Notes: generated by a model not told the origin, from the letters alone. 64,000 bases of DNA from an uncultured Gemmatimonadales bacterium (GCA_963698975.1 CAVOSV010000001.1:738514-802513); one strand, 5' to 3'; positions 4,667 to 23,740 are shown, counted from the first letter of the stretch. Made by a program: numbers and translations.

Positions 4667-5257
4667 TCACTCCTGATCGGATTCAGGGGCGTTCGGCATC
4701 GCTCTGCGCAGCGCTCGGAATGCCCGCGTCAGGTCGGGCAACTGGTGGTTCGCGTTCAAGCCGCTTGGGTTGGGCAGCACCCAGAGGCCGCTCTGGCTAA
4801 TCAGCTCCTGCTGGCGTCCCATCGCGGCCTTGGGCCTTTCAAACGCCGTACGATAGGCTCCGATCCCAACCACCGCCACCCAGCGTGGCCGATAACGCGC
4901 AACCTTTCGCTCCAGTCGCCTTCTGCCGGCCCGCAGCTCCTCCGGCGACAGCTCAGCCGCAGTCGCGGTTGCGCGGGCGACCAGATTGGTGATGCCCAGC
5001 CCCTCATCCAGCAGCAGATGCTCGTCCCAGGGACTTACCAGGAGGTGAGTAAATCCAGCAGCGTACAGTGCAGGCCAGAAGCGATTTCCCGGCCGCGCGA
5101 AGTGGTGGCGCGTGGCCCCGGAATAGAGTCCGGGATTGATGCCGCAGAACAACACCTTGAGATGGGGTCGGATCAGATCAGGGACCATGCGACCTACCGC
5201 AGCCGCAACCTGAGCCTTGGTGGGCCGGGTCCTGCTCGCCGCGGGACCATTGACCAT
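4667..5257 (-). CDS. mug: G/U mismatch-specific uracil-DNA glycosylase (Mug/TDG family)
   Basis: KVLFCGINPGLYSGATRHHFARPGNRFWPALYAAGFT and WVLPNPSGLNA are the Mug catalytic and wedge motifs. An internal start (MVPDLIRP) is possible. Confidence 0.8.
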   Translation of the reverse strand: MVNGPAASRTRPTKAQVAAAVGRMVPDLIRPHLKVLFCGINPGLYSGATRHHFARPGNRFWPALYAAGFTHLLVSPWDEHLLLDEGLGITNLVARATATAAELSPEELRAGRRRLERKVARYRPRWVAVVGIGAYRTAFERPKAAMGRQQELISQSGLWVLPNPSGLNANHQLPDLTRAFRALRRAMPNAPESDQE

Positions 5258-5259
5258 GT

Positions 5260-5388
5260 TCAGAGTAGGGTGAGCAGTATCGTCAGAACGAAAGCCGTGA
5301 TCCAGGATTTGAGGTAAACGCCGCGGGCCTGTCGTCTGATCGAAGAGAGCTCCTGAGGATCGGTGATCGGTTCGGAACCTTGGTCCAT
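5260..5388 (-). CDS. Possible 42-aa tail-anchored small membrane protein
   Basis: My own translation: MDQGSEPITDPQELSSIRRQARGVYLKSWITAFVLTILLTLL. It ends 2 nt before the mug start. No Shine-Dalgarno seen; below the ORF-track size cutoff. Confidence 0.3.
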   Translation of the reverse strand: MDQGSEPITDPQELSSIRRQARGVYLKSWITAFVLTILLTLL

Positions 5389-5643
5389 GTCGCGCTGACC
5401 GCGCGCGGCGAGCTTCACTCAGGTGCGTTCACGAGCCTGCAAGAAGCCTAGTGCCGCTGCCCACAGAGGAATGACCAGCAACATTCGCCAGCCACGCGCG
5501 ACATCGGCGTGGATGAGCATTGCCGCTAGAACCAGGCTGGCGCCGAGGAGCACGACTCCGAAGGTGAGCCGTTTGCGGCGCTCACGCGGCCCGATGTTGG
5601 CGGTACCAGCTGTCGTCAGATTCAGATCCCGATCCGGTCGGCA

Positions 5644-16989: not shown

Positions 16990-17562
16990 ATGACCGAACT
17001 CGGCCTTGGAGTGGCAACTCTGGAGCACGAACCGACCGGCAGGACCGATCCGGATGCAGTGGACGCCACGCTCGCGGCCAGCGGAGATGCCAGCGCGTTC
17101 GAGCGGCTGTACCGGACCCACGTCCCCAAAGTGTACGGGTTGGTTCGCCGCATGCTCAGCGATGATGATGTGGATGAGGTCGCCCAGGACATCTTCGTGC
17201 GAGCGTGGCAGAAGCTCGGCACCTTTCGCGGCGAAGCGGCGTTTGGAACCTGGCTCCATCGACTGGCGGTAAACGTGATCCTGGCCCGGAGGGAGACGTT
17301 GGGGACCCGGCGCAAGCGATACGTGGAGGGCGACATGGCGTTGGAGACAGTTCCCAGCCGTCGAGCCACGCCCGAGATGTCCATGGATTTCGAGGCAGCC
17401 ATGGAACGGCTGCCGGAGGGAGCCCGGGAGGTGTTCGTGCTACACGATGTAGAGGGTTACCGCCATGAGGAAATTGCCCAGATGCTCGGTCTTGCGACCG
17501 GAACGTCGAAATCCCAGTTGCATCGGGCGCGAATGGCTCTGCGTCAGCATCTGGAGCGCTGA
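16990..17562 (+). CDS. ECF (group 4) sigma-70 family factor
   Basis: [20 protein letters not shown]...[29 protein letters not shown] (region 2), then [31 protein letters not shown] (region 4 HTH). Confidence 0.85.
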
Positions 17563-17571
17563 GGAGGAATC

Positions 17572-18270
17572 ATGATTCAAGACCCCTGGACCGACCGCCT
17601 GTCGGAATACGTCGACGGAGAGCTGCCCGAGTGGGAGCGCCACGCGCTCGAGTCGCACCTGGAGAGCTGTGCCGAATGCTCCCTGATCGTGTCCGATCTT
17701 CGGCGGGTGGTGCGCCGAGCGCGTACCCTCAAGAATCCTTCTCCGGCCACCGATCTCTGGCCTGGCATTGCCGCCCGGATCGGGGCAGGAACACCCCAGG
17801 CCCACGACGTGGTGGATATCAGCGCTCACCGTCGAGCTCGGCGCCGCTGGGCGTTCTCCTTGCCTCAGCTTGCTGCGGCTGCCATTGCGTTGATGACCGT
17901 GTCGGGCGGCAGTGTCTGGTTCTTGAGCGGGACTGCCCGGCAGTCCGTGGTGCTCGCTCCCGCCCCATCCAGCCCGACGGAGGGCGCTCCTGCTGTGAGC
18001 GTCTCAATGAGGCCCAACGTCTCTCAAAGCTATGCCGCTGCCGTGGCCGATCTGGAGCGAGTGTTGGCGGAGGGCCGCGGCAAGCTCGACACTACCACCG
18101 TCAAGATCATCGAGCAAAATCTGGCCGCCATCGATCGCGCCATTGCTGAGGCACAGCGTGCGCTCGACGCCGACTCCGGTAACCTGTACCTCAACACACA
18201 CCTGGCCGAAACGATGCGGCGTAAACTCGACCTGCTGCGACAGGCCGCCGCGCTCGTTCCGGTGAGCTGA
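17572..18270 (+). CDS. Anti-sigma factor (zf-HC2 type, single TM)
   Basis: GAGGAGGA lies upstream. LSEYVDGELPEWERHALESHLESCAECS (H-x3-C-x2-C). TM segment WAFSLPQLAAAAIALMTVSGG. Starts 9 nt after the sigma gene. Confidence 0.8.
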   Translation: MIQDPWTDRLSEYVDGELPEWERHALESHLESCAECSLIVSDLRRVVRRARTLKNPSPATDLWPGIAARIGAGTPQAHDVVDISAHRRARRRWAFSLPQLAAAAIALMTVSGGSVWFLSGTARQSVVLAPAPSSPTEGAPAVSVSMRPNVSQSYAAAVADLERVLAEGRGKLDTTTVKIIEQNLAAIDRAIAEAQRALDADSGNLYLNTHLAETMRRKLDLLRQAAALVPVS

Positions 18271-18281
18271 AAGGACCTCCC

Positions 18282-19184
18282 GTGCTGTTTGCCCTTCTGA
18301 CCGGTACCCTGGCGCTGGCACCCGCTGTCCAGGTGGATACCACGCTCAACGCGGTGCGGGGTCAGCGCCTTGCCATCAATGCCTACGCGGGCGATGTCAC
18401 GGTGCGCGCCTGGAACAGAAACGCGGTTCGGATCGAGGCCGACGGCGATCAGGATCAGCTCGAGATTTCGAGCAGCGCGACCGGTATCAGTATTCGGACC
18501 CAGGGGGGACGACACGGCCCGCCCGAGGAGATCACGCTTCGAATCAGTGCACCCGCCTGGATCGGTCTCAGTCTGGCCGGGGTGAATACCAACGCCAAAG
18601 TCGAAGGGATCCGGGCTCCTATATCGGTCGAGACGGTCGAGGGCGAAGTAGACGTCAGCGGTGGCGAGAGTCTGATCTCGCTGCGTTCGGTTCAGGGCTC
18701 GGTGAGGCTGCGCGGAGCCAGGGGCCGGATCAACGTGAACTCAGTGAATGACGACGTCCAAGTGGCCAACAGTTCCGGGGACATCGCGGCCCAAACCGTT
18801 AACGGAGAGATCCTGCTCCAGGGGGTGGATGCTTCGAGCCTCGACGCCAATACAGTCAATGGCGATATCTCCTACTCCGGTCCGATCCGGAGCAGCGGCC
18901 GCTATGCGTTGTCGACCCATAACGGAGATCTGACGCTGACCGTCCCGCTGGGAACCAGTGCCGGTGTGACGGTTTCCACCTTCAGTGGCGACTTCGAATC
19001 CGAGTTCCCGGTCCCGCTGCAGGGCACCCGTAAGGGCAAAGGCTTTAACTTCACTCTGGGCTCCGGGAGTGCACAGGTTACCCTCGAGTCGTTCCAGGGG
19101 ACCATTCGGCTGGTTCGTCCCGGCAGCGAAGAAGACCCCGCTCGCCAGAAGCGGGACCACGACCGGGATCATGACGAAGACTAG
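18282..19184 (+). CDS. DUF4097-like beta-helical 'putative adhesin' protein, third gene of the sigma unit
   Basis: Repetitive G(D/E)(I/V)xV units (VNGEILLQGV, VNGDISYSG, HNGDLTLTV, FSGDFESEF, GTIRLVR). Acidic His/Asp tail RDHDRDHDED. Confidence 0.65.
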   Translation: MLFALLTGTLALAPAVQVDTTLNAVRGQRLAINAYAGDVTVRAWNRNAVRIEADGDQDQLEISSSATGISIRTQGGRHGPPEEITLRISAPAWIGLSLAGVNTNAKVEGIRAPISVETVEGEVDVSGGESLISLRSVQGSVRLRGARGRINVNSVNDDVQVANSSGDIAAQTVNGEILLQGVDASSLDANTVNGDISYSGPIRSSGRYALSTHNGDLTLTVPLGTSAGVTVSTFSGDFESEFPVPLQGTRKGKGFNFTLGSGSAQVTLESFQGTIRLVRPGSEEDPARQKRDHDRDHDED

Positions 19185-19253: not shown

Positions 19254-19595
19254 TCCAGAAACCAGGCAGATTTGTAACACCGACGATACAAAGCTTCTCA
19301 GCAGTGCGGGTTACGATCATGATTCAGGCTTAGCCGCCGGTGCCGTACCCCACTCCGGTTCTAGCCTAACAGATTATTTCTTCGACATTTAGCTCCTCGG
19401 GTTTTGCTTAGAATCTCCTGGCATCTGGGAATAAGTCCCGCTTGACAGGACCCGGGTGCAATCCCCGCCGCACCTCTCCGAAAGAGGGGGCGAGCGATAA
19501 AGAAGTCGCCGGCTGGTACGGTTCAAAGCCGGGCACGTGTCTTGTACTTCGGCGGATCGGTAGTCCCAGACCGAACCTCAGCCCGGAGTCGAGCA

Positions 19596-20153
19596 ATGCA
19601 TGCCCTGTTGAAGAATGCCCTTGTGGGTACAGCCGCGCTGGTGCTGGCCGGCTCCAGCACCGCGATGGCCCAGGCAAACCTGACCTCGAACGTTGCCACC
19701 GTTGCGCTTACCGCGACGAAGGCGGCAACCCTGACGGTCAGCACGAACGTCGGTACCGCGACCCTGGCCAACATCACGGACAACTCCACGGCCAACCAGT
19801 TCACCCCGGTGAGCCTGACCACCGACTGGAACCTCACCGGCGGCTCCTCCGTGCGGATGGTCGGCTGGTTTGCTACCCCGGCACAGGCGCTGGTGAACGG
19901 TACTGACCTGATCCCCTCCTCGAAGGTCGAGGGTCGGGTTAACTCCACGGCGTTTGCTGCCTTCTCCGGCGCTGGTGTGGGCGCCGTCGGTGTAGCCGGC
20001 GGAAGCCTGCAGCTCTTCAGCCAGGCAGTGGCCGCGGGCAGCTACTTTGGCACCCGCACCGACCAGCTGGATCTCCGGTTGAACCTGACCGGCACGACCA
20101 CTATGGCCGGCAACTATACCGGTACGCTCAACCTCCAGGCGATCGTTCAGTAA
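19596..20153 (+). CDS. Secreted fibre-subunit-like protein A (185 aa)
   Basis: GGAG 7 nt upstream of ATG 19596. Signal MHALLKNALVGTAALVLAGSSTAMA|Q. S/T/N/G-rich. C-terminal RTDQLDLRLNLTGTTTMAGNYTGTLNLQAIVQ. Paralogue of the next gene. Confidence 0.75.
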   Translation: MHALLKNALVGTAALVLAGSSTAMAQANLTSNVATVALTATKAATLTVSTNVGTATLANITDNSTANQFTPVSLTTDWNLTGGSSVRMVGWFATPAQALVNGTDLIPSSKVEGRVNSTAFAAFSGAGVGAVGVAGGSLQLFSQAVAAGSYFGTRTDQLDLRLNLTGTTTMAGNYTGTLNLQAIVQ

Positions 20154-20184
20154 GCGACGAACGAAACCACCTGGGCCTGATTGC

Positions 20185-20746
20185 ATGGGCAGACGTACGT
20201 TCGGTCTCTTCTTCGCCCTGAGCGCCTTTCTGGCGCTCGGGGCGAAGGAGCTTTTTGGGCAGGCTCGGATCATTTCCCTGGCAGCAACCTCTCCGGCCGA
20301 CCTCTCTCTCGTGGTCACCTCCGGCGCAATACAGACCATAGCCGGGGTAGCCGATAATGCGGTTAATAGCTTCCCGTCTCCGGTGGTCATTCAGACCACG
20401 TGGAGCGTCAGCCCGGGGCAGACCAACACGGTGAATCTGGTGGCCTATTTCCTGGTTCCGGCACAGGCGCTGGTTGGCGCCACGACGCAAATCCCCTCCA
20501 GCCGGGTGCTGGCGCGGATGTCCACCGGGCTCCCGACCGCGTTCACCCCAATTACGCAGAATGCCTTCGCCGGAGTGGGTACCGCCGGCGGGAGCTCTGC
20601 GACTCTACTCGGTGAACATCGGCGGCGGCAACAAAAACTCGACCCGTACCGACAACCTCGACCTGCAGCTGAATCTGGTAGGCTTCCCCACTCTGCCTGC
20701 CGGGTCGTATACCGGCGTGCTCAACCTCCGAGTGATTACCCAGTGA
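20185..20746 (+). pseudogene. Secreted fibre-subunit-like protein B (paralogue of A), one +1 frame change
   Basis: Signal MGRRTFGLFFALSAFLALGAKELFGQ. An extra t at ~20596 (ggg agc t ctg cga ctc) separates ...GVGTAGGS from LRLYSVNIGGGNKNSTRTDNLDLQLNLVGFPTLPAGSYTGVLNLRVITQ (TGA 20744-20746). Confidence 0.75.
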
Positions 20747-21501
20747 AGCCCGACAGTCGCGCAGCATGGCTGAGTCTCGTGGTCCTCTGCGGCGCCTCGC
20801 TGCCGGTCCGGCCAATCGTTGCGCAATCGATAAGCCCGCCCATCGCTGAGTATCAGGAACGAGCCCGCTCCAGCTTCCAACTCAGGAATGCGTCGATCTT
20901 CCCCCTCACCGTCGTGCTCGAACTCCGCGGCTTCCGCATCTCGGAAGCTGGCGACGTGATCGACGTTCCGCTGGATACCAGCCGGATCCAGGTGAAGCTT
21001 TCAGAGATGAGCTTTCGGCTCCCTCCGAAGGGAAGCCGGACGGTTTTTTATGAGGCCACGAGCGACAGTCTTCCCGCCTGGTTCACGATCCTGAGTGCAA
21101 TGACGGGAGCGCGTACGGAAAACGGGCTGAATGTCCGCATTCTTCTGCCGCACGTGGTCTATCTGAATCAGAAGCAACCGCTCCGAAAGGAAGAGGTTGC
21201 GATTCGCCGGTTCGAGCAGGATCCCGGCACGAATAAGGTCCGGGTCCTGCTAGAGAATCTGGGGCCTCACCTGGGCCGGGTTCATCAAGTGACTGTGAGT
21301 AATCAGGACAAGGTGGGACAACCGGGTGGCGGATTCCCCCTTATGCCTCACAGCCGCCGCTGGGCCGAGCTCGAGTGGGACAGTCCGGCCCAGCCGACCC
21401 ATCTGAGTATCCGCTTCTCCCGGTTTACCGTCGATACCGTCCTTACTCCTGTTGCGGCGTCCCTCGCCGCCGACTCAGGCGCGAGCGCTCTCCGGCCGTG
21501 A
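20743..21501 (+). CDS. Secreted 252-aa protein, candidate periplasmic chaperone-like component
   Basis: GTG 20743 overlaps the upstream TGA (GTGA). Signal VKPDSRAAWLSLVVLCGASLPVRPIVAQ|S. Beta-rich, e.g. SSFQLRNASIFPLTVVLELRGFRI, RTVFYEATSDSLPAWFTIL. I recognise no named family. Confidence 0.65.
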   Translation: MKPDSRAAWLSLVVLCGASLPVRPIVAQSISPPIAEYQERARSSFQLRNASIFPLTVVLELRGFRISEAGDVIDVPLDTSRIQVKLSEMSFRLPPKGSRTVFYEATSDSLPAWFTILSAMTGARTENGLNVRILLPHVVYLNQKQPLRKEEVAIRRFEQDPGTNKVRVLLENLGPHLGRVHQVTVSNQDKVGQPGGGFPLMPHSRRWAELEWDSPAQPTHLSIRFSRFTVDTVLTPVAASLAADSGASALRP

Positions 21502-23141
21502 CCCGCTCGGTCCGCCAATCACGGTTGGCGGGGAAGGTTATCCTTGCCGCGGTTCTGCTGTTCTTTCTTCCCCTCTCCGCTCGGGCCCAGACGGTAGTTG
21601 AGGTACAGGGTGGTGGCTCCTCGCTCTCGGGCGGATACGGAGCAACCGCCAACTTCTGGCGATCCGGAGTGGACGGCTGGGTGGGGTTGGGATATCTGGA
21701 CGGCTTCCGCGCGGGCGCTTTCCTGAGAAGGGCCGCCGGCCATGGGGACACCCTGGGTGTCGGCAACAGCGCCCTGGTCATGCGGCTGCCCACAGACATC
21801 TTCACTCCAGGATACAATCTGCTGGTCCAGGGACTCAGCTACGCCGGCGGAGACCGGCGGACCTCCTACCTGGTTTTCGGCGGTGCCAGCTCGGCGGGAC
21901 TCGGGGCACCGGCCTTTCAGCCGACCGACATCGAGGAGCCGATGGGCGCCGTGTTTCTACGACACTCCATCCAGCCCAACGTCTATTTCACCACCAGCGC
22001 CATCTTTGCTGGTCAGCAGACGGTCCTTCCTGGGGTCGAATGGCAGCCCTCTCGCGACCTGACCACCGGGTTCGTCATCGGGATGGGTTCCAATCACCCC
22101 TACGCCGCATCCAGTGTGTCCATGCGGGAGGGCCGGGTTGGGCTGCTGGCCTCATATGTATGGAGTTCGGATCAGTTCAGGAGAGCGCCGGTTCCGACCC
22201 CGAACCAGACCGAAGTAGACCGGGAGAACCTGACCTTTACCTACGATATCAGTCCCGAGTTCTCCGTCGGTTTCGCCCGGCAAAACTTCGTGCAGGACTC
22301 AGTTCCGGGGAATGCCCTGACTCCATTACGCGCCGTGGGAAACACCGTGTTCGGGGGAGGTCGCTGGCGTGAGCTGCGGCTGACGGCAGGTGTGTATCAC
22401 TCAGAGTCTCAGAATATCAGCAATCTCAGCTCGTACCTGGCAGTCGGACGCGAGCTGACGCGCTGGCTGGACGCCGAGATGTTCCTCCTGCAGAGTCGCC
22501 CGGAAGGACAGCCCACTCTTACTACTCCGCTGGCAAACCTGAGGTGGCGTTTGTCCCCTCACTTCGGGTTAAGCCAGCAGATCGTCTTCCACCATGGTGA
22601 GCCTACCGTGCTGTGCGGCGCCAGCGTCAGGACCAGCTTCGGTGAGTTTGGGCTGGACTATCAGATCGTGCATCAGCCGCTCCAGCCCTTGAGTCCTTTC
22701 CGCAGCGCCTTGAATCTGACCGCGCGGCTGCAGCTGGGGAGTTACTCGACCAATCTGGGCACCTACGTCCGGCCGGATGGAACAGTGGATTACTCCGCCT
22801 CGGGGAGCACGTTCCTGTACATGGGGAGTTTTGGAGGAGTCCAGCCGCAGCAGATTGGCGGGACCATCGCCCGATACGTGGTTCAGGGCACCGTTCGCGA
22901 TGAGTCAGGCAGTCCCGTCGAGGGTGCGGCGGTGAAGCTGAATGATGAGGTGGTGTATACCAACTCAGCCGGAGAGTTCTTTGTCCGGGTTAAGCACCCG
23001 GAACACTACACACTCGCGGTGGCGACCGAGGAATTTCTGCTGCCGGGGCGGTGGGAAGTGGTAAGCGCTCCCACGGCAGTGCTTGCAAGTAATGAGAAGC
23101 AGGTCACCCCTGTCGAGATCGTGCTTCGTCGCGCTCCCTGA
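21498..23141 (+). CDS. Predicted outer-membrane beta-barrel protein with a C-terminal carboxypeptidase-regulatory-like domain (547 aa)
   Basis: GTG 21498 overlaps the upstream TGA (GTGA). Signal ...KVILAAVLLFFLPLSARAQ|T. Alternating beta-strand pattern throughout. C-terminal YVVQGTVRDESGSPVEGAAVKLNDEVVYTNSAGEFFVRV. Confidence 0.65.
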   Translation: MTRSVRQSRLAGKVILAAVLLFFLPLSARAQTVVEVQGGGSSLSGGYGATANFWRSGVDGWVGLGYLDGFRAGAFLRRAAGHGDTLGVGNSALVMRLPTDIFTPGYNLLVQGLSYAGGDRRTSYLVFGGASSAGLGAPAFQPTDIEEPMGAVFLRHSIQPNVYFTTSAIFAGQQTVLPGVEWQPSRDLTTGFVIGMGSNHPYAASSVSMREGRVGLLASYVWSSDQFRRAPVPTPNQTEVDRENLTFTYDISPEFSVGFARQNFVQDSVPGNALTPLRAVGNTVFGGGRWRELRLTAGVYHSESQNISNLSSYLAVGRELTRWLDAEMFLLQSRPEGQPTLTTPLANLRWRLSPHFGLSQQIVFHHGEPTVLCGASVRTSFGEFGLDYQIVHQPLQPLSPFRSALNLTARLQLGSYSTNLGTYVRPDGTVDYSASGSTFLYMGSFGGVQPQQIGGTIARYVVQGTVRDESGSPVEGAAVKLNDEVVYTNSAGEFFVRVKHPEHYTLAVATEEFLLPGRWEVVSAPTAVLASNEKQVTPVEIVLRRAP

Positions 23142-23147
23142 CTCCCA

Positions 23148-23612
23148 TCACTTCACGTCCAACAGCTCGACGTCGAACACCAGCGTTGCCCCCGGCGGGA
23201 TGTCCGGAGGAGCTCCGGCGGTCCCATAACCAAGATCCGGCGGAATGACGAGCTTGCGACGTCCGCCAACCTTCATACCAGCTACGCCTTCGTCCCAGCC
23301 CGCGATCACCTGCCCAGCACCGAGGGTAAATCCGAAAGGCTGATTGCGGTCTCGGCTGCTGTCGAACTTCTCCCCGTTGGGCAGCCAGCCGGTGTAGTGC
23401 ACCGAGACGGTTTTCCCAGCCGTTGCTGTTGTACCGCTTCCAACTGCCACATCCTGGTACCGCAATCCCGAGGGTGTCCTGGTCATGACGGTGGTATCGA
23501 CGCCGAGAGCAGCACTGAAGCCACCAGCGGCAGGCGGACGCTCACGATCCGCTTTGCCGCCACAACCGCTCAGGGCAAGTAGCACCAGCACGGATACTGT
23601 GTTCAGGTTCAT
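23148..23612 (-). CDS. FKBP-type peptidyl-prolyl cis-trans isomerase lipoprotein
   Basis: Lipobox [74 protein letters not shown]. Confidence 0.9.
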
Positions 23613-23666: not shown

Positions 23667-23740
23667 TCGGGACGGCGGGATTTGAACCCGCGACCCCTGC
23701 AACCCCATTGCAGTGCGCTACCGGACTGCGCCACGTCCCG
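23667..23740 (-). tRNA. tRNA-Pro (anticodon GGG)
   Basis: Hand-folded cloverleaf: acceptor CGGGACG/CGTCCCG, anticodon stem CTGCA/TGCAG with loop AUGGGGU, T-arm GCGGG-TTCAAAT-CCCGC, discriminator A. CCA is not encoded. Confidence 0.9.

What the first reader, a model, noticed from the sequence alone, without database searches (positions are those of the whole stretch)
19596..23141. Subunit-subunit-chaperone-like-barrel operon: candidate uncharacterised surface-fibre assembly system
Four co-directional genes; the last three are joined by GTGA start/stop overlaps (20743-20746, 21498-21501). Genes A and B are ~185-aa paralogues. Both have Sec signals, S/T/N/G/A-rich beta-type composition and a shared C-terminal block RTD(Q/N)LDL(R/Q)LNL.G....AG(N/S)YTG(T/V)LNL..I.Q. 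This block is reminiscent of the G-x-Y-containing terminal strand of chaperone-usher and Csu/spore-coat-U-type pilins. Gene C (252 aa, signal peptide, beta-rich) has the size expected of a periplasmic Ig-fold chaperone, but I recognise no family motif. Gene D (547 aa, signal peptide, barrel-like strand pattern, C-terminal carboxypeptidase-regulatory-like sandwich) is much shorter than a canonical ~800-aa usher. The gene order matches a pilus operon, but the two assembly components do not look canonical.
Basis: partly seen in the sequence, partly recalled or inferred. Interest (0 to 1): 0.8.

Follow-up and report, generated by a model that had tools for sequence, protein, structure and literature searches.

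The report
Orphan chaperone-usher-like pilus operon
A four-gene operon in a soil Gemmatimonadales bacterium probably builds a surface fibre the way chaperone-usher pili are built, but its proteins match no known pilus family by sequence and its outer-membrane pore is a stripped-down version of the usual "usher".

Summary
The four co-directional genes and both GTGA overlaps are real. One thing was missed: gene B carries a one-base insertion near 20594, so in this window it is split over two frames. A 98%-identical relative has B intact at 186 aa.

None of A, B, C or the barrel of D matches a Pfam or NCBIfam pilin, chaperone or usher model.
- C is confidently predicted (pLDDT 92) as two beta-sandwich domains. 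Nearly all of its 50 best PDB matches are pilus chaperones of every class (FimC, CfaA, CsuC, Caf1M, EcpB).
- D is predicted less confidently (pLDDT 65) as a barrel of about 25 strands plus one C-terminal sandwich. Its eight best PDB matches are the ushers FimD and PapC. It has no N-terminal domain and no plug.

The order subunit x2-3, chaperone, barrel holds in 71 Gemmatimonadales loci, an Acidobacteriaceae MAG and one unplaced contig. The subunits keep a C-terminal G-x-Y-x-G-x-L-x-L strand like that of CsuA/B.

I also found a conserved sigma-54-like promoter before A and a covarying RNA hairpin just after A.

The subunit fold and donor-strand complementation were not tested. Verdict: a chaperone-usher-like fibre system with a minimal usher, a new variant of a known kind.

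The parts
19532..19546 (+). Sigma-54-like (-24/-12) promoter element GGCACGTGTCTTGTA, 50 nt upstream of the start of A
   Evidence: It is the only match to GGCAYG-N4-TTGYW in the 64-kb window (0.23 expected). The motif occurs once per locus, on the + strand, just upstream of the first subunit gene. That holds in 30 loci with the strict pattern and in about 55 of 66 loci with a relaxed one. The spacing equals the RpoN consensus TGGCACG-N4-TTGCW (my own knowledge), but the -12 element reads GT, not GC.
19585..19588 (+). Shine-Dalgarno GGAG for gene A
   Evidence: It is conserved as cGGAG 8-11 nt before the ATG in the alignment of 34 upstream regions.
19596..20153 (+). Gene A: 185-aa secreted subunit, the likely major subunit. 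It has a signal peptide ending A-M-A|Q and a C-terminal strand AGNYTGTLNLQAIVQ.
   Evidence: A has 580 homologues, all unnamed, at 75-91% identity across Gemmatimonadales. No Pfam, NCBIfam or PDB sequence match was found. W78, F92, A98 and G172-x-Y174-x-G176-x-L178 are invariant over 32 diverse A/B-family members.
20185..20746 (+). Gene B: paralogous subunit (37% identical to A), broken in this window by a 1-nt insertion at about 20594. Intact it would be 186 aa.
   Evidence: B is intact in L001 (98% identical DNA) and uninterrupted in L002-L004.
20208..20250 (+). Conserved RNA hairpin (19-bp stem, -39.6 kcal/mol, followed by CUUUUUGGG) inside the signal-peptide codons of B, 55 nt after the stop of A. 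It is a candidate intra-operon attenuator or 3' stabiliser of the A transcript.
   Evidence: The hairpin is at the same place in 25 loci, with 96.3% of cells paired against 92.1% in shuffles (0 of 500 reach it). There are 21 compensatory cells against 6.5 expected. Slid controls give 31-60% pairing.
20743..21501 (+). Gene C: 252-aa periplasmic chaperone-like protein with two Ig-like beta-sandwich domains (residues 29-142 and 152-233) and a disordered tail (234-252)
   Evidence: AF2 gives pLDDT 92.1 and pTM 0.83. Nearly all of the top 50 Foldseek PDB matches are chaperone-usher chaperones, including FimC (TMt 0.63), CfaA, CsuC, Caf1M, CupB2, EcpB, SafB, DraB and FaeE, with E 5e-8 to 5e-6. No PapD_N/PapD_C hit was found in 80 diverse members.
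21498..23141 (+). Gene D: 547-aa outer-membrane usher-like protein. It has a signal peptide (1-30), about 25 beta-strands (33-432; nt 21594-22793), a flexible linker (433-460) and a C-terminal CarboxypepD_reg beta-sandwich (461-545; nt 22878-23132).
   Evidence: AF2 gives pLDDT 65.5 and pTM 0.54. The eight best Foldseek PDB matches are FimD and PapC (E 2e-10 to 1.5e-6, TMq about 0.4). LptD and porins follow at E >= 2e-5. Pfam gives CarboxypepD_reg at E 3e-8. Recurrent sub-threshold CooC_C hits all fall on the C-terminal domain.

Best explanation
**Proposal.** A-B-C-D is a chaperone-usher-type fibre assembly operon from a lineage that known family models do not capture.

**Proposed working**
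1. A sigma-54-type promoter at 19532-19546 drives the operon.
2. A hairpin just inside B (20208-20250) ends or stabilises part of the transcripts after A. This would make A the abundant major subunit and leave B, C and D at lower levels.
3. A and B are exported by Sec and cleaved before an invariant Gln.
4. In the periplasm the two-domain chaperone C binds each subunit. It would do so by inserting its last domain-1 strand (VRILLPHVVYL, residues 131-141) next to the subunit's C-terminal G-x-Y-x-G-x-L-x-L strand (donor-strand complementation).
5. D is a barrel of about 24-26 strands with a single tethered C-terminal beta-sandwich. It would act as a minimal usher: it receives chaperone-subunit complexes, and the N-terminal stretch of the incoming subunit (..NVATVALTAT..) replaces the chaperone strand. 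The growing thin fibre is threaded to the surface.
6. Because D has no plug and no N-terminal domain, its C-terminal domain presumably does both the docking and the gating.

**Shown here:** gene structure, conserved synteny, the fold of C, the approximate fold of D, the conserved subunit C-terminal strand, and the promoter-like and hairpin motifs.

**Inferred:** the subunit fold, donor-strand complementation and exchange, fibre formation, the roles of the D domains, and the effect of the hairpin.
For: - **Fold of C.** The AF2 model has pLDDT 92 and pTM 0.83 with two sandwich domains. Nearly all of its top 50 PDB matches are pilus chaperones of the classical, alternative and archaic classes, aligned over about 227 columns spanning both domains.
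- **Fold of D.** The model is a barrel plus a C-terminal sandwich. Its top 8 PDB matches are ushers, with E-values 4-5 orders of magnitude better than LptD or porins. CooC_C, the usher C-terminal domain model, recurs below threshold on D's C-terminal domain in 5 of 7 homologues.
- **Synteny.** The order 2-3 paralogous subunit genes, then C, then D holds in all 71 Gemmatimonadales loci (43 loci with two subunit genes, 20 with three). It also holds in Acidobacteriaceae loci L073/L074 and in distant locus L075.
- **Subunit motif.** The invariant C-terminal motif G-x-Y-x-G-x-L is kept in the distant subunits. It parallels the CsuA/B end QGDYKDTLLVTVNF, and hhalign places the two motifs on each other.
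- **Coupling.** The GTGA overlaps B/C and C/D indicate translational coupling.
- **Hairpin.** It is conserved and covaries directly after the first subunit gene. The E. coli record annotates a small RNA (fimR2) directly after fimA. From my own knowledge, stem-loops follow papA and fimA.
- **Composition.** A and B are rich in T, A, G, S and N, nearly free of charged residues, and have no Cys.
Against: - The subunit fold was not predicted, so an incomplete Ig-like fold and a donor-strand groove are assumed, not shown.
- No sequence-level homology to any chaperone-usher component could be demonstrated. Pfam and NCBIfam give nothing for A, B, C or the D barrel. PDB sequence profiles give nothing. 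Profile-profile P-values against E. coli chaperones, ushers and pilins are only about 0.01-0.02.
- The D model is of moderate quality (pLDDT 65, TMq about 0.4 to ushers). Its strand count and barrel closure are uncertain.
- D lacks the plug and N-terminal domain that known ushers need for gating and recruitment.
- No two-domain tip adhesin is encoded.
- The -12 element of the promoter reads GT rather than the canonical GC. No rpoN or activator gene lies in the window.
- B is frameshifted in this particular sequence.
Confidence: 0.65

Rival explanations
1. The same machinery exports A and B as non-fibrous surface material, such as monomers, short oligomers, a capsule-like coat or an outer-membrane-anchored layer. 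C would act as a holding chaperone and D as a dedicated secretion pore, and no pilus would form.
For: No tip adhesin or clear terminator subunit is encoded. D has no plug or N-terminal domain, so it may not catalyse ordered polymerisation. A is unusually conserved for a pilin, at 75-91% identity across the order. From my own knowledge, the Caf1 system shows that chaperone-usher machines can make capsule-like material.
Against: Two or three paralogous subunits with a shared terminal strand are typical of heteropolymeric fibres. Even Caf1 is a donor-strand-linked polymer. The hairpin after A suggests stoichiometric control of a major against minor subunits.
Confidence: 0.15
2. The resemblance is only of fold. 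C would be a generic two-Ig-domain periplasmic protein and D a large porin or transporter with a transthyretin-like tail. A and B would be unrelated beta-rich envelope proteins, and the cluster would serve some other envelope function linked to the adjacent ECF sigma / anti-sigma / DUF4097 stress module.
For: No sequence homology to chaperone-usher families was found. The C model also matches non-chaperone Ig tandems such as WxLIP and RbmA at similar E-values but lower TM. D also matches LptD and porins. The ECF module is syntenic in most Gemmatimonadales loci.
Against: The best and most numerous matches of both C and D are specifically the two partners of one known machine. The matches cover both domains of C, with TMt up to 0.63. 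The ECF module is absent from the distant loci that keep the A-C-D order. The conserved promoter motif is of the sigma-54 type, not the ECF type.
Confidence: 0.12
3. In this particular genome the operon is decaying. The insertion at about 20594 is real, B is a pseudogene, and translation from the B start runs on in frame into C, giving a 438-aa fusion.
For: The frame of 20185 stays open to 21501. The insertion is not in a homopolymer run.
Against: B is intact in the 98%-identical L001 and uninterrupted in L002-L004. Frame-breaking single-base indels also hit DUF4097 in the window and EamA in L001 within 13.5 kb. Several other MAG loci show split hits in conserved genes or a subunit gene read through a frameshift. 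This is the pattern of assembly error. A, C and D are undamaged.
Confidence: 0.25

Closest known systems
Archaic (sigma) chaperone-usher pili: Acinetobacter Csu (CsuA/B, CsuC, CsuD) and Pseudomonas CupE
   Same: - The operon logic is the same: small secreted subunits, then a periplasmic chaperone, then an outer-membrane pore.
- The C model matches CsuC (6fqa, 5d6h; E about 1e-7, TMt 0.53-0.55).
- The subunit C-terminal strand AGNYTGTLNLQAIVQ resembles CsuA/B QGDYKDTLLVTVNF.
- The archaic class has the widest known phyletic spread of the CU classes (PMC4654587).
   Different: - No SCPU, PapD or Usher model is matched.
- hhalign of the A family against CsuA/B is not significant, P 0.32.
- D is 547 aa with no N-terminal domain and no plug. 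Canonical ushers are about 800-880 aa (FimD 878 aa).
- There is no two-domain tip adhesin like CsuE.
- It is found in Gemmatimonadota and Acidobacteriota, phyla not listed for any CU class (PMC4654587).
Classical chaperone-usher pili: type 1 (FimA/FimC/FimD) and P pili (PapD/PapC)
   Same: - The best TM-scores of C are to FimC (TMt 0.63, rmsd about 5 A over 227 columns).
- The best matches of D are FimD and PapC.
- A transcript-level element follows the major subunit gene: fimR2 is annotated after fimA, and a hairpin follows A here.
   Different: - Sequence profiles are not significantly related: P about 0.02 for C against six E. coli chaperones and 0.09 for D against five ushers.
- D has one C-terminal domain instead of two, no plug and no N-terminal domain.
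- Equivalents of the classical cleft residues Arg8 and Lys112 could not be identified.
Alternative chaperone-usher pili: CFA/I, CS1 (CooC usher) and ECP
   Same: - CfaA is the second-best match of C.
- The CS1 usher C-terminal domain model CooC_C recurs below threshold on D's C-terminal sandwich (E 6e-4 to 0.2).
- D residues 438-497 align to EcpC 732-787 with P 0.014.
   Different: All of these signals are below significance. CooC_C resembles the CarboxypepD_reg fold, so the hits may reflect only the fold.
FGL-type polyadhesins such as Yersinia Caf1 (Caf1, Caf1M, Caf1A)
   Same: The operon is minimal, with one or two subunits and no specialised tip adhesin. Caf1M is among the matches of C.
   Different: From my own knowledge, Caf1A is a full-length usher. 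C has a short loop before its last domain-1 strand (residues 122-131), not a long F1-G1 loop.

Membership tests
PapD-like pilus chaperones (Pfam PF00345 PapD_N / PF02753 PapD_C) | Match to the family sequence models | tested here: not met
   The window protein has no hit at E <= 1. None of 80 diverse family members hits PapD_N or PapD_C. The profile against PDB sequences finds nothing. hhalign against six E. coli chaperones gives P 0.022, colinear over 166 columns, which is marginal.
PapD-like pilus chaperones | Two Ig-like domains in the chaperone arrangement | tested here: met
   The AF2 model has pLDDT 92 and domains at 29-142 and 152-233. Foldseek aligns both domains to FimC, CfaA, CsuC, Caf1M, EcpB and others, with TMt 0.5-0.63.
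PapD-like pilus chaperones | Invariant proline kinking strand D1; basic/Tyr residues in the cleft that anchor the subunit C-terminal carboxylate; donor strand G1 with alternating hydrophobic residues (PMC4654587) | tested here: inconclusive
   P76 lies between two short strands (72-76, 82-86) and is kept in 52 of 80 members. R179 (78/80), R206 (73/80), Y103 (71/80) and Y140 (75/80) are conserved. The last domain-1 strand reads VRILLPHVVYL.
Fimbrial ushers (Pfam PF00577 Usher, PF13954 PapC_N, PF13953 PapC_C) | Match to the family sequence models | tested here: not met
   Only CarboxypepD_reg is matched, plus sub-threshold CooC_C on the C-terminal domain. There is no Usher, PapC_N or PapC_C hit in the window protein or in six distant homologues. 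hhalign against five E. coli ushers gives P 0.09.
Fimbrial ushers | Large (24-strand) outer-membrane barrel followed by periplasmic C-terminal beta-sandwich domain(s) | tested here: met
   The model has about 25 strands at 33-432 and one sandwich at 461-545. The top 8 PDB matches are FimD and PapC. Confidence is moderate (pLDDT 65) and the strand count is uncertain by about two.
Fimbrial ushers | Plug domain inserted in the barrel, and N-terminal periplasmic domain that recruits chaperone-subunit complexes | tested here: not met
   The first strand starts at residue 33, directly after the signal peptide. The longest inter-strand gaps are 16 residues (132-147 and 223-238), too short for a plug of about 80 residues. 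Total length is 547 aa against 826-878 aa for E. coli ushers.
Chaperone-usher pilins (Pfam Fimbrial PF00419, SCPU PF05229, DUF4402 PF14352) | Match to the family sequence models | tested here: not met
   There is no hit at E <= 1 for A, B or 32 diverse family members. The profile against PDB sequences finds no pilin. hhalign against 14 E. coli pilins, EcpA and CsuA/B is not significant.
Chaperone-usher pilins | Ig-like fold lacking the last strand, completed by a donor strand from chaperone or neighbour | not tested
Chaperone-usher pilins | Conserved C-terminal beta-strand with Gly and an aromatic residue; N-terminal stretch of alternating hydrophobic residues | tested here: met
   G172-x-Y174-x-G176-x-L178 is invariant in 32 diverse members and is kept as G-x-[YFW]-x-G in the Acidobacteriaceae and L075 subunits. 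The mature N-terminus reads Q-x-G-x-x-S-x-x-x-x-V-x-L-x-A-T-K. This rests on inspection of the sequences only.

The most novel reading that the evidence does not exclude
This is a previously unclassified lineage of the chaperone-usher pathway, outside the alpha, beta, gamma, kappa, pi and sigma clades. It is widespread in the soil phyla Gemmatimonadota and Acidobacteriota. Its usher is reduced to a barrel plus one tethered beta-sandwich that serves as plug, docking site and exchange catalyst. If so, the N-terminal and plug domains are not essential to the chaperone-usher mechanism, and the system may be close to the ancestral minimal machine.
Probability: 0.45. Interest if true: 0.75.

Novelty: new variant of a known kind. 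Interest (0 to 1): 0.62.

Why it matters
**Phyletic range.** Chaperone-usher pili are described only from Proteobacteria, Cyanobacteria and Deinococcus-Thermus (PMC4654587). Their classification rests on homology of full-length ushers. A system that keeps the chaperone fold and the barrel-plus-sandwich core, but drops the plug and the N-terminal recruitment domain, would extend the pathway to abundant and poorly studied soil phyla.

**Mechanism.** It would give a natural minimal usher on which to test which domains are needed for gating, recruitment and donor-strand exchange.

**Annotation.** The work also gives provisional functions to several hundred protein clusters now labelled hypothetical. 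The counts are 404 representative clusters for C, at least 451 homologues of D and 580 of A.

Tried and rejected
- **Family and PDB sequence searches.** Pfam and NCBIfam scans of all four proteins, of 80 C relatives, 32 A/B relatives and 6 distant D relatives found no pilus family. The only signal was sub-threshold CooC_C. Profile searches of C, D and A/B against PDB sequences gave only chance-level hits.
- **Profile-profile comparison.** I compared the three families with E. coli K-12 chaperones, ushers and pilins taken from six fimbrial operons. A/B was also compared with CsuA/B. The results were marginal or not significant, so homology cannot be claimed from sequence.
- **Coevolution.** Mean-field DCA on 270 subunit sequences was run to look for a contact ladder between the N-terminal and C-terminal strands. 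Gap artefacts dominated and I discarded it.
- **Programmed frameshift in B.** Rejected. There is no slippery motif at 20590-20597, and B is in one frame in L001, with uninterrupted hits in the other close relatives.
- **Control by the adjacent ECF sigma factor.** Not supported. The conserved upstream motif is of the sigma-54 type, and the ECF module is missing from distant loci that keep the operon.
- **Cyanobacterial tubular pilus (PMC12397347).** A different pilin fold and gene set.
- **Odd hits in the representative search.** P0453 (3501 aa, 19 matched stretches) is an unrelated tandem-repeat protein. P0369 and P0390 are frameshifted C-D fusions.
- **Rfam scan of 18.5-24.5 kb.** Only a tRNA was found.
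- **Literature.** No paper links chaperone-usher systems to Gemmatimonadota or Acidobacteriota.
- **Related-locus scan.** The scan with the diverse C alignment failed for lack of a conserved stretch, so I repeated it with the close alignment.

Full report
**1. What is in the sequence**

Four co-directional genes lie on the + strand of a 62-64% G+C window.
- A: 19596-20153, 185 aa.
- B: 20185-20746.
- C: 20743-21501, 252 aa, GTG start.
- D: 21498-23141, 547 aa, GTG start.

The GTGA overlaps at 20743-20746 and 21498-21501 are exactly as stated.

One point was missed. B spans 562 nt. Its first 136 codons and its last 50 codons are in different frames. The ORF list therefore shows a 438-aa B-front/C fusion ORF and a 90-aa ORF.

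L001 is a contig 98% identical over 13.5 kb and carries B as an intact 186-aa gene. The window has one extra G at about 20594. B is also uninterrupted in the 90%-identical loci L002-L004.

The two assemblies differ by other single-base indels that break conserved genes. DUF4097 is broken in the window at 19183, and EamA is broken in L001. Several other MAG loci show split hits in conserved genes or a frameshifted subunit gene. I read the shift in B as an assembly error or a very recent lesion, not a programmed event. There is no slippery site, and L001 encodes B in one frame.

**2. Sequence-level identity of the proteins**

Homologues are plentiful but all unnamed, and all named ones come from Gemmatimonadales MAGs. 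Counts are at least 451 for D, 977 for C and 580 for A.

Family and PDB sequence searches gave the following.
- Pfam and NCBIfam give nothing for A, B or C.
- For D they give only a CarboxypepD_reg domain at 462-513, plus a weak hit to CooC_C, the C-terminal domain of the CS1 pilus usher.
- A profile search of C against 1.84 billion representative proteins found 404 clusters.
- None of 80 diverse C-family members hits PapD_N or PapD_C.
- None of 32 diverse A/B-family members hits the Fimbrial, SCPU or DUF4402 models.
- Profiles against PDB sequences find nothing.

Profile-profile comparison with E. coli K-12 chaperones, ushers and pilins gives only marginal P-values.
- C against six chaperones: P 0.022, colinear over 166 columns.
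- D residues 438-497 against EcpC 732-787: P 0.014.
- A residues 137-188 against EcpA: P 0.015.

Membership in the known families therefore cannot be claimed from sequence.

**3. Folds**

C was folded with an alignment of 80 diverse relatives. The model has pLDDT 92.1 and pTM 0.83, with two beta-sandwich domains at 29-142 and 152-233 and a disordered tail.

Against the PDB, nearly all of the 50 best matches are pilus chaperones of every class. They include CfaA, FimC (TMt 0.63), CsuC, Caf1M, CupB2, EcpB, SafB, DraB, FaeE and YadV. They are aligned over both domains at 8-15% identity.

D was folded with 76 close relatives. The model has pLDDT 65.5 and pTM 0.54. It shows a signal helix, about 25 long strands from 33 to 432, a disordered linker at 433-459 and a C-terminal sandwich at 461-545.

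The eight best PDB matches of D are FimD and PapC (E 2e-10 to 1.5e-6). LptD and porins follow at E 2e-5 or worse. TM-scores are modest, about 0.4, as expected for a medium-quality model of a protein 300 residues shorter than its matches.

There is no room for an N-terminal domain or a plug. The barrel begins right after the signal peptide, and the longest inter-strand gaps are 16 residues. In distant D homologues the CooC_C model recurs below threshold on the same C-terminal domain, in 5 of 7 proteins including the window's own, with E from 6e-4 to 0.2.

**4. Subunits**

Across 32 diverse members the family keeps the following features.
- A signal peptide ending A-x-A before an invariant Gln.
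- A mature N-terminus with alternating hydrophobic residues (..V-x-L-x-A-T-K..).
- Invariant W78, F92 and A98.
- An invariant C-terminal G172-x-Y174-x-G176-x-L178.

The same terminal strand appears in subunits of the Acidobacteriaceae locus (..GIFQGSLNIHVDTF..GTWAGYVYVRAQAY) and of L075 (..GRYQGVLMLQAQERQ).

It parallels the end of CsuA/B, QGDYKDTLLVTVNF. I confirmed that sequence against PDB 7zl4. hhalign aligns exactly these motifs, but without statistical weight.

A coevolution analysis was uninformative.

**5. Conservation of the operon**

A genome scan returned 71 loci, all from Gemmatimonadales or Gemmatimonadaceae MAGs. In nearly all of them the order is urocanase (-), ECF sigma, zf-HC2 anti-sigma, DUF4097, A, B (and sometimes a third paralogue), C, D, FKBP (-). 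Forty-three loci have two subunit genes and twenty have three.

The most divergent loci (L064-L071, with C at 44-52% identity) keep C and D, with two subunit genes detected upstream in most, but show no ECF module.

Distant C relatives keep the same architecture.
- An Acidobacteriaceae MAG has a 230-aa protein, C (276 aa), a 555-aa CarboxypepD_reg protein and a 172-aa protein. A sigma-54 activator lies alongside.
- Contig L075 has proteins of 176 aa, 167 aa, C (231 aa) and 581 aa.

**6. Regulation**

Upstream of A there is a motif conserved in sequence and position: (T)GGCA(C/T)(G/A)-N3-CTTGTA. In the window it is 19532-19546.
- It is the only match in 64 kb.
- It occurs once per locus, in front of the first subunit gene, in 30 loci with the strict pattern and about 55 of 66 loci with a relaxed one.
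- Its spacing equals the RpoN -24/-12 consensus, although the -12 dinucleotide is GT.
- L075 has TGGCGAG-N4-TTGCT in the same place.
- No rpoN or activator gene is in the window.

Fifty-five nt after the stop of A, inside the signal-peptide codons of B, lies a 19-bp hairpin (20208-20250, -39.6 kcal/mol) followed by CUUUUUGGG.
- It is at the same place in 25 loci.
- There are 15 pairs, and 96.3% of cells are paired against 92.1% in shuffles (0 of 500 reach it).
- There are 21 compensatory cells against 6.5 expected.
- Slid controls give 31-60% pairing.

I read it as an attenuator or 3' stabiliser that raises A over B, C and D. This is an inference.

**7. Interpretation**

The chaperone fold of C, the usher-like barrel-plus-sandwich of D, the two or three small secreted paralogues with a pilin-like terminal strand, the translational coupling and the conserved order together point to a chaperone-usher-type fibre pathway.

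It fails every sequence-model membership test, and it fails two structural ones for ushers (plug and N-terminal domain). I therefore do not file it in the classical, alternative or archaic families. It works like them, as far as the evidence goes, but with a minimal usher.

The known classes are reported from Proteobacteria, Cyanobacteria and Deinococcus-Thermus only (PMC4654587). I found no paper linking such systems to Gemmatimonadota or Acidobacteriota.

The main gap is the untested subunit fold and donor-strand complementation. Rival readings are non-fibrous export, fold resemblance only, and decay in this genome. None is excluded, but each is less likely.

Noticed in passing
window 19183 (gene 18282-19184): A one-base deletion relative to L001 truncates the DUF4097 gene to 300 aa, against 350 aa in L001. 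Together with the insertion in B and a reciprocal indel in the EamA gene of L001 (window 26027), this suggests indel errors in one or both assemblies.
   Followed up: partly
window 16990-19184: An ECF sigma factor, a zf-HC2 anti-sigma factor and a DUF4097 protein lie directly upstream in the same orientation. They are syntenic with the operon in most Gemmatimonadales loci but absent from the most divergent loci and from the Acidobacteriaceae and L075 loci. No ECF-type promoter motif was seen before A.
   Followed up: partly
window 19596-20153 (protein A): A carries 8 N-x-S/T sequons in 160 mature residues (2.9 expected from composition, P about 0.002). Those at N79 and N101 are kept in about 80% of 187 orthologues. 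B has only one. This may reflect N-glycosylation or just beta-strand composition.
   Followed up: partly
window 23148-23612 (-): A convergent FKBP-type peptidyl-prolyl isomerase gene with a lipoprotein-like signal (LALSGC) ends 6 nt after the stop of D. It stays next to D in most Gemmatimonadales loci. A folding role for the pilus proteins is possible but untested.
   Followed up: no
window 21442-21498 (C residues 234-252): The disordered C-terminal tail of C carries a conserved motif (..AASLAADS..RP) in the close family. Because D lacks an N-terminal docking domain, this tail could be the contact with D. That is pure speculation.
   Followed up: no
window 23667-23740 (-): A tRNA gene (Rfam RF00005, 63.6 bits) lies just beyond the FKBP gene.
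   Followed up: no
L067 about 5220-5268; L064 about 5365-5414: In more distant loci the hairpin inside gene B is absent. Other strong hairpins (-40 and -30 kcal/mol) follow the first subunit gene, so the principle of a stem-loop after gene 1 may be wider than the one conserved sequence.
   Followed up: no
L073 8752-10254 (-), L074 6062-7564 (-): A sigma-54-dependent response regulator (Response_reg, Sigma54_activat, HTH_8) sits next to the Acidobacteriaceae version of the operon. This fits the sigma-54-like promoter motif seen in the Gemmatimonadales loci.
   Followed up: no
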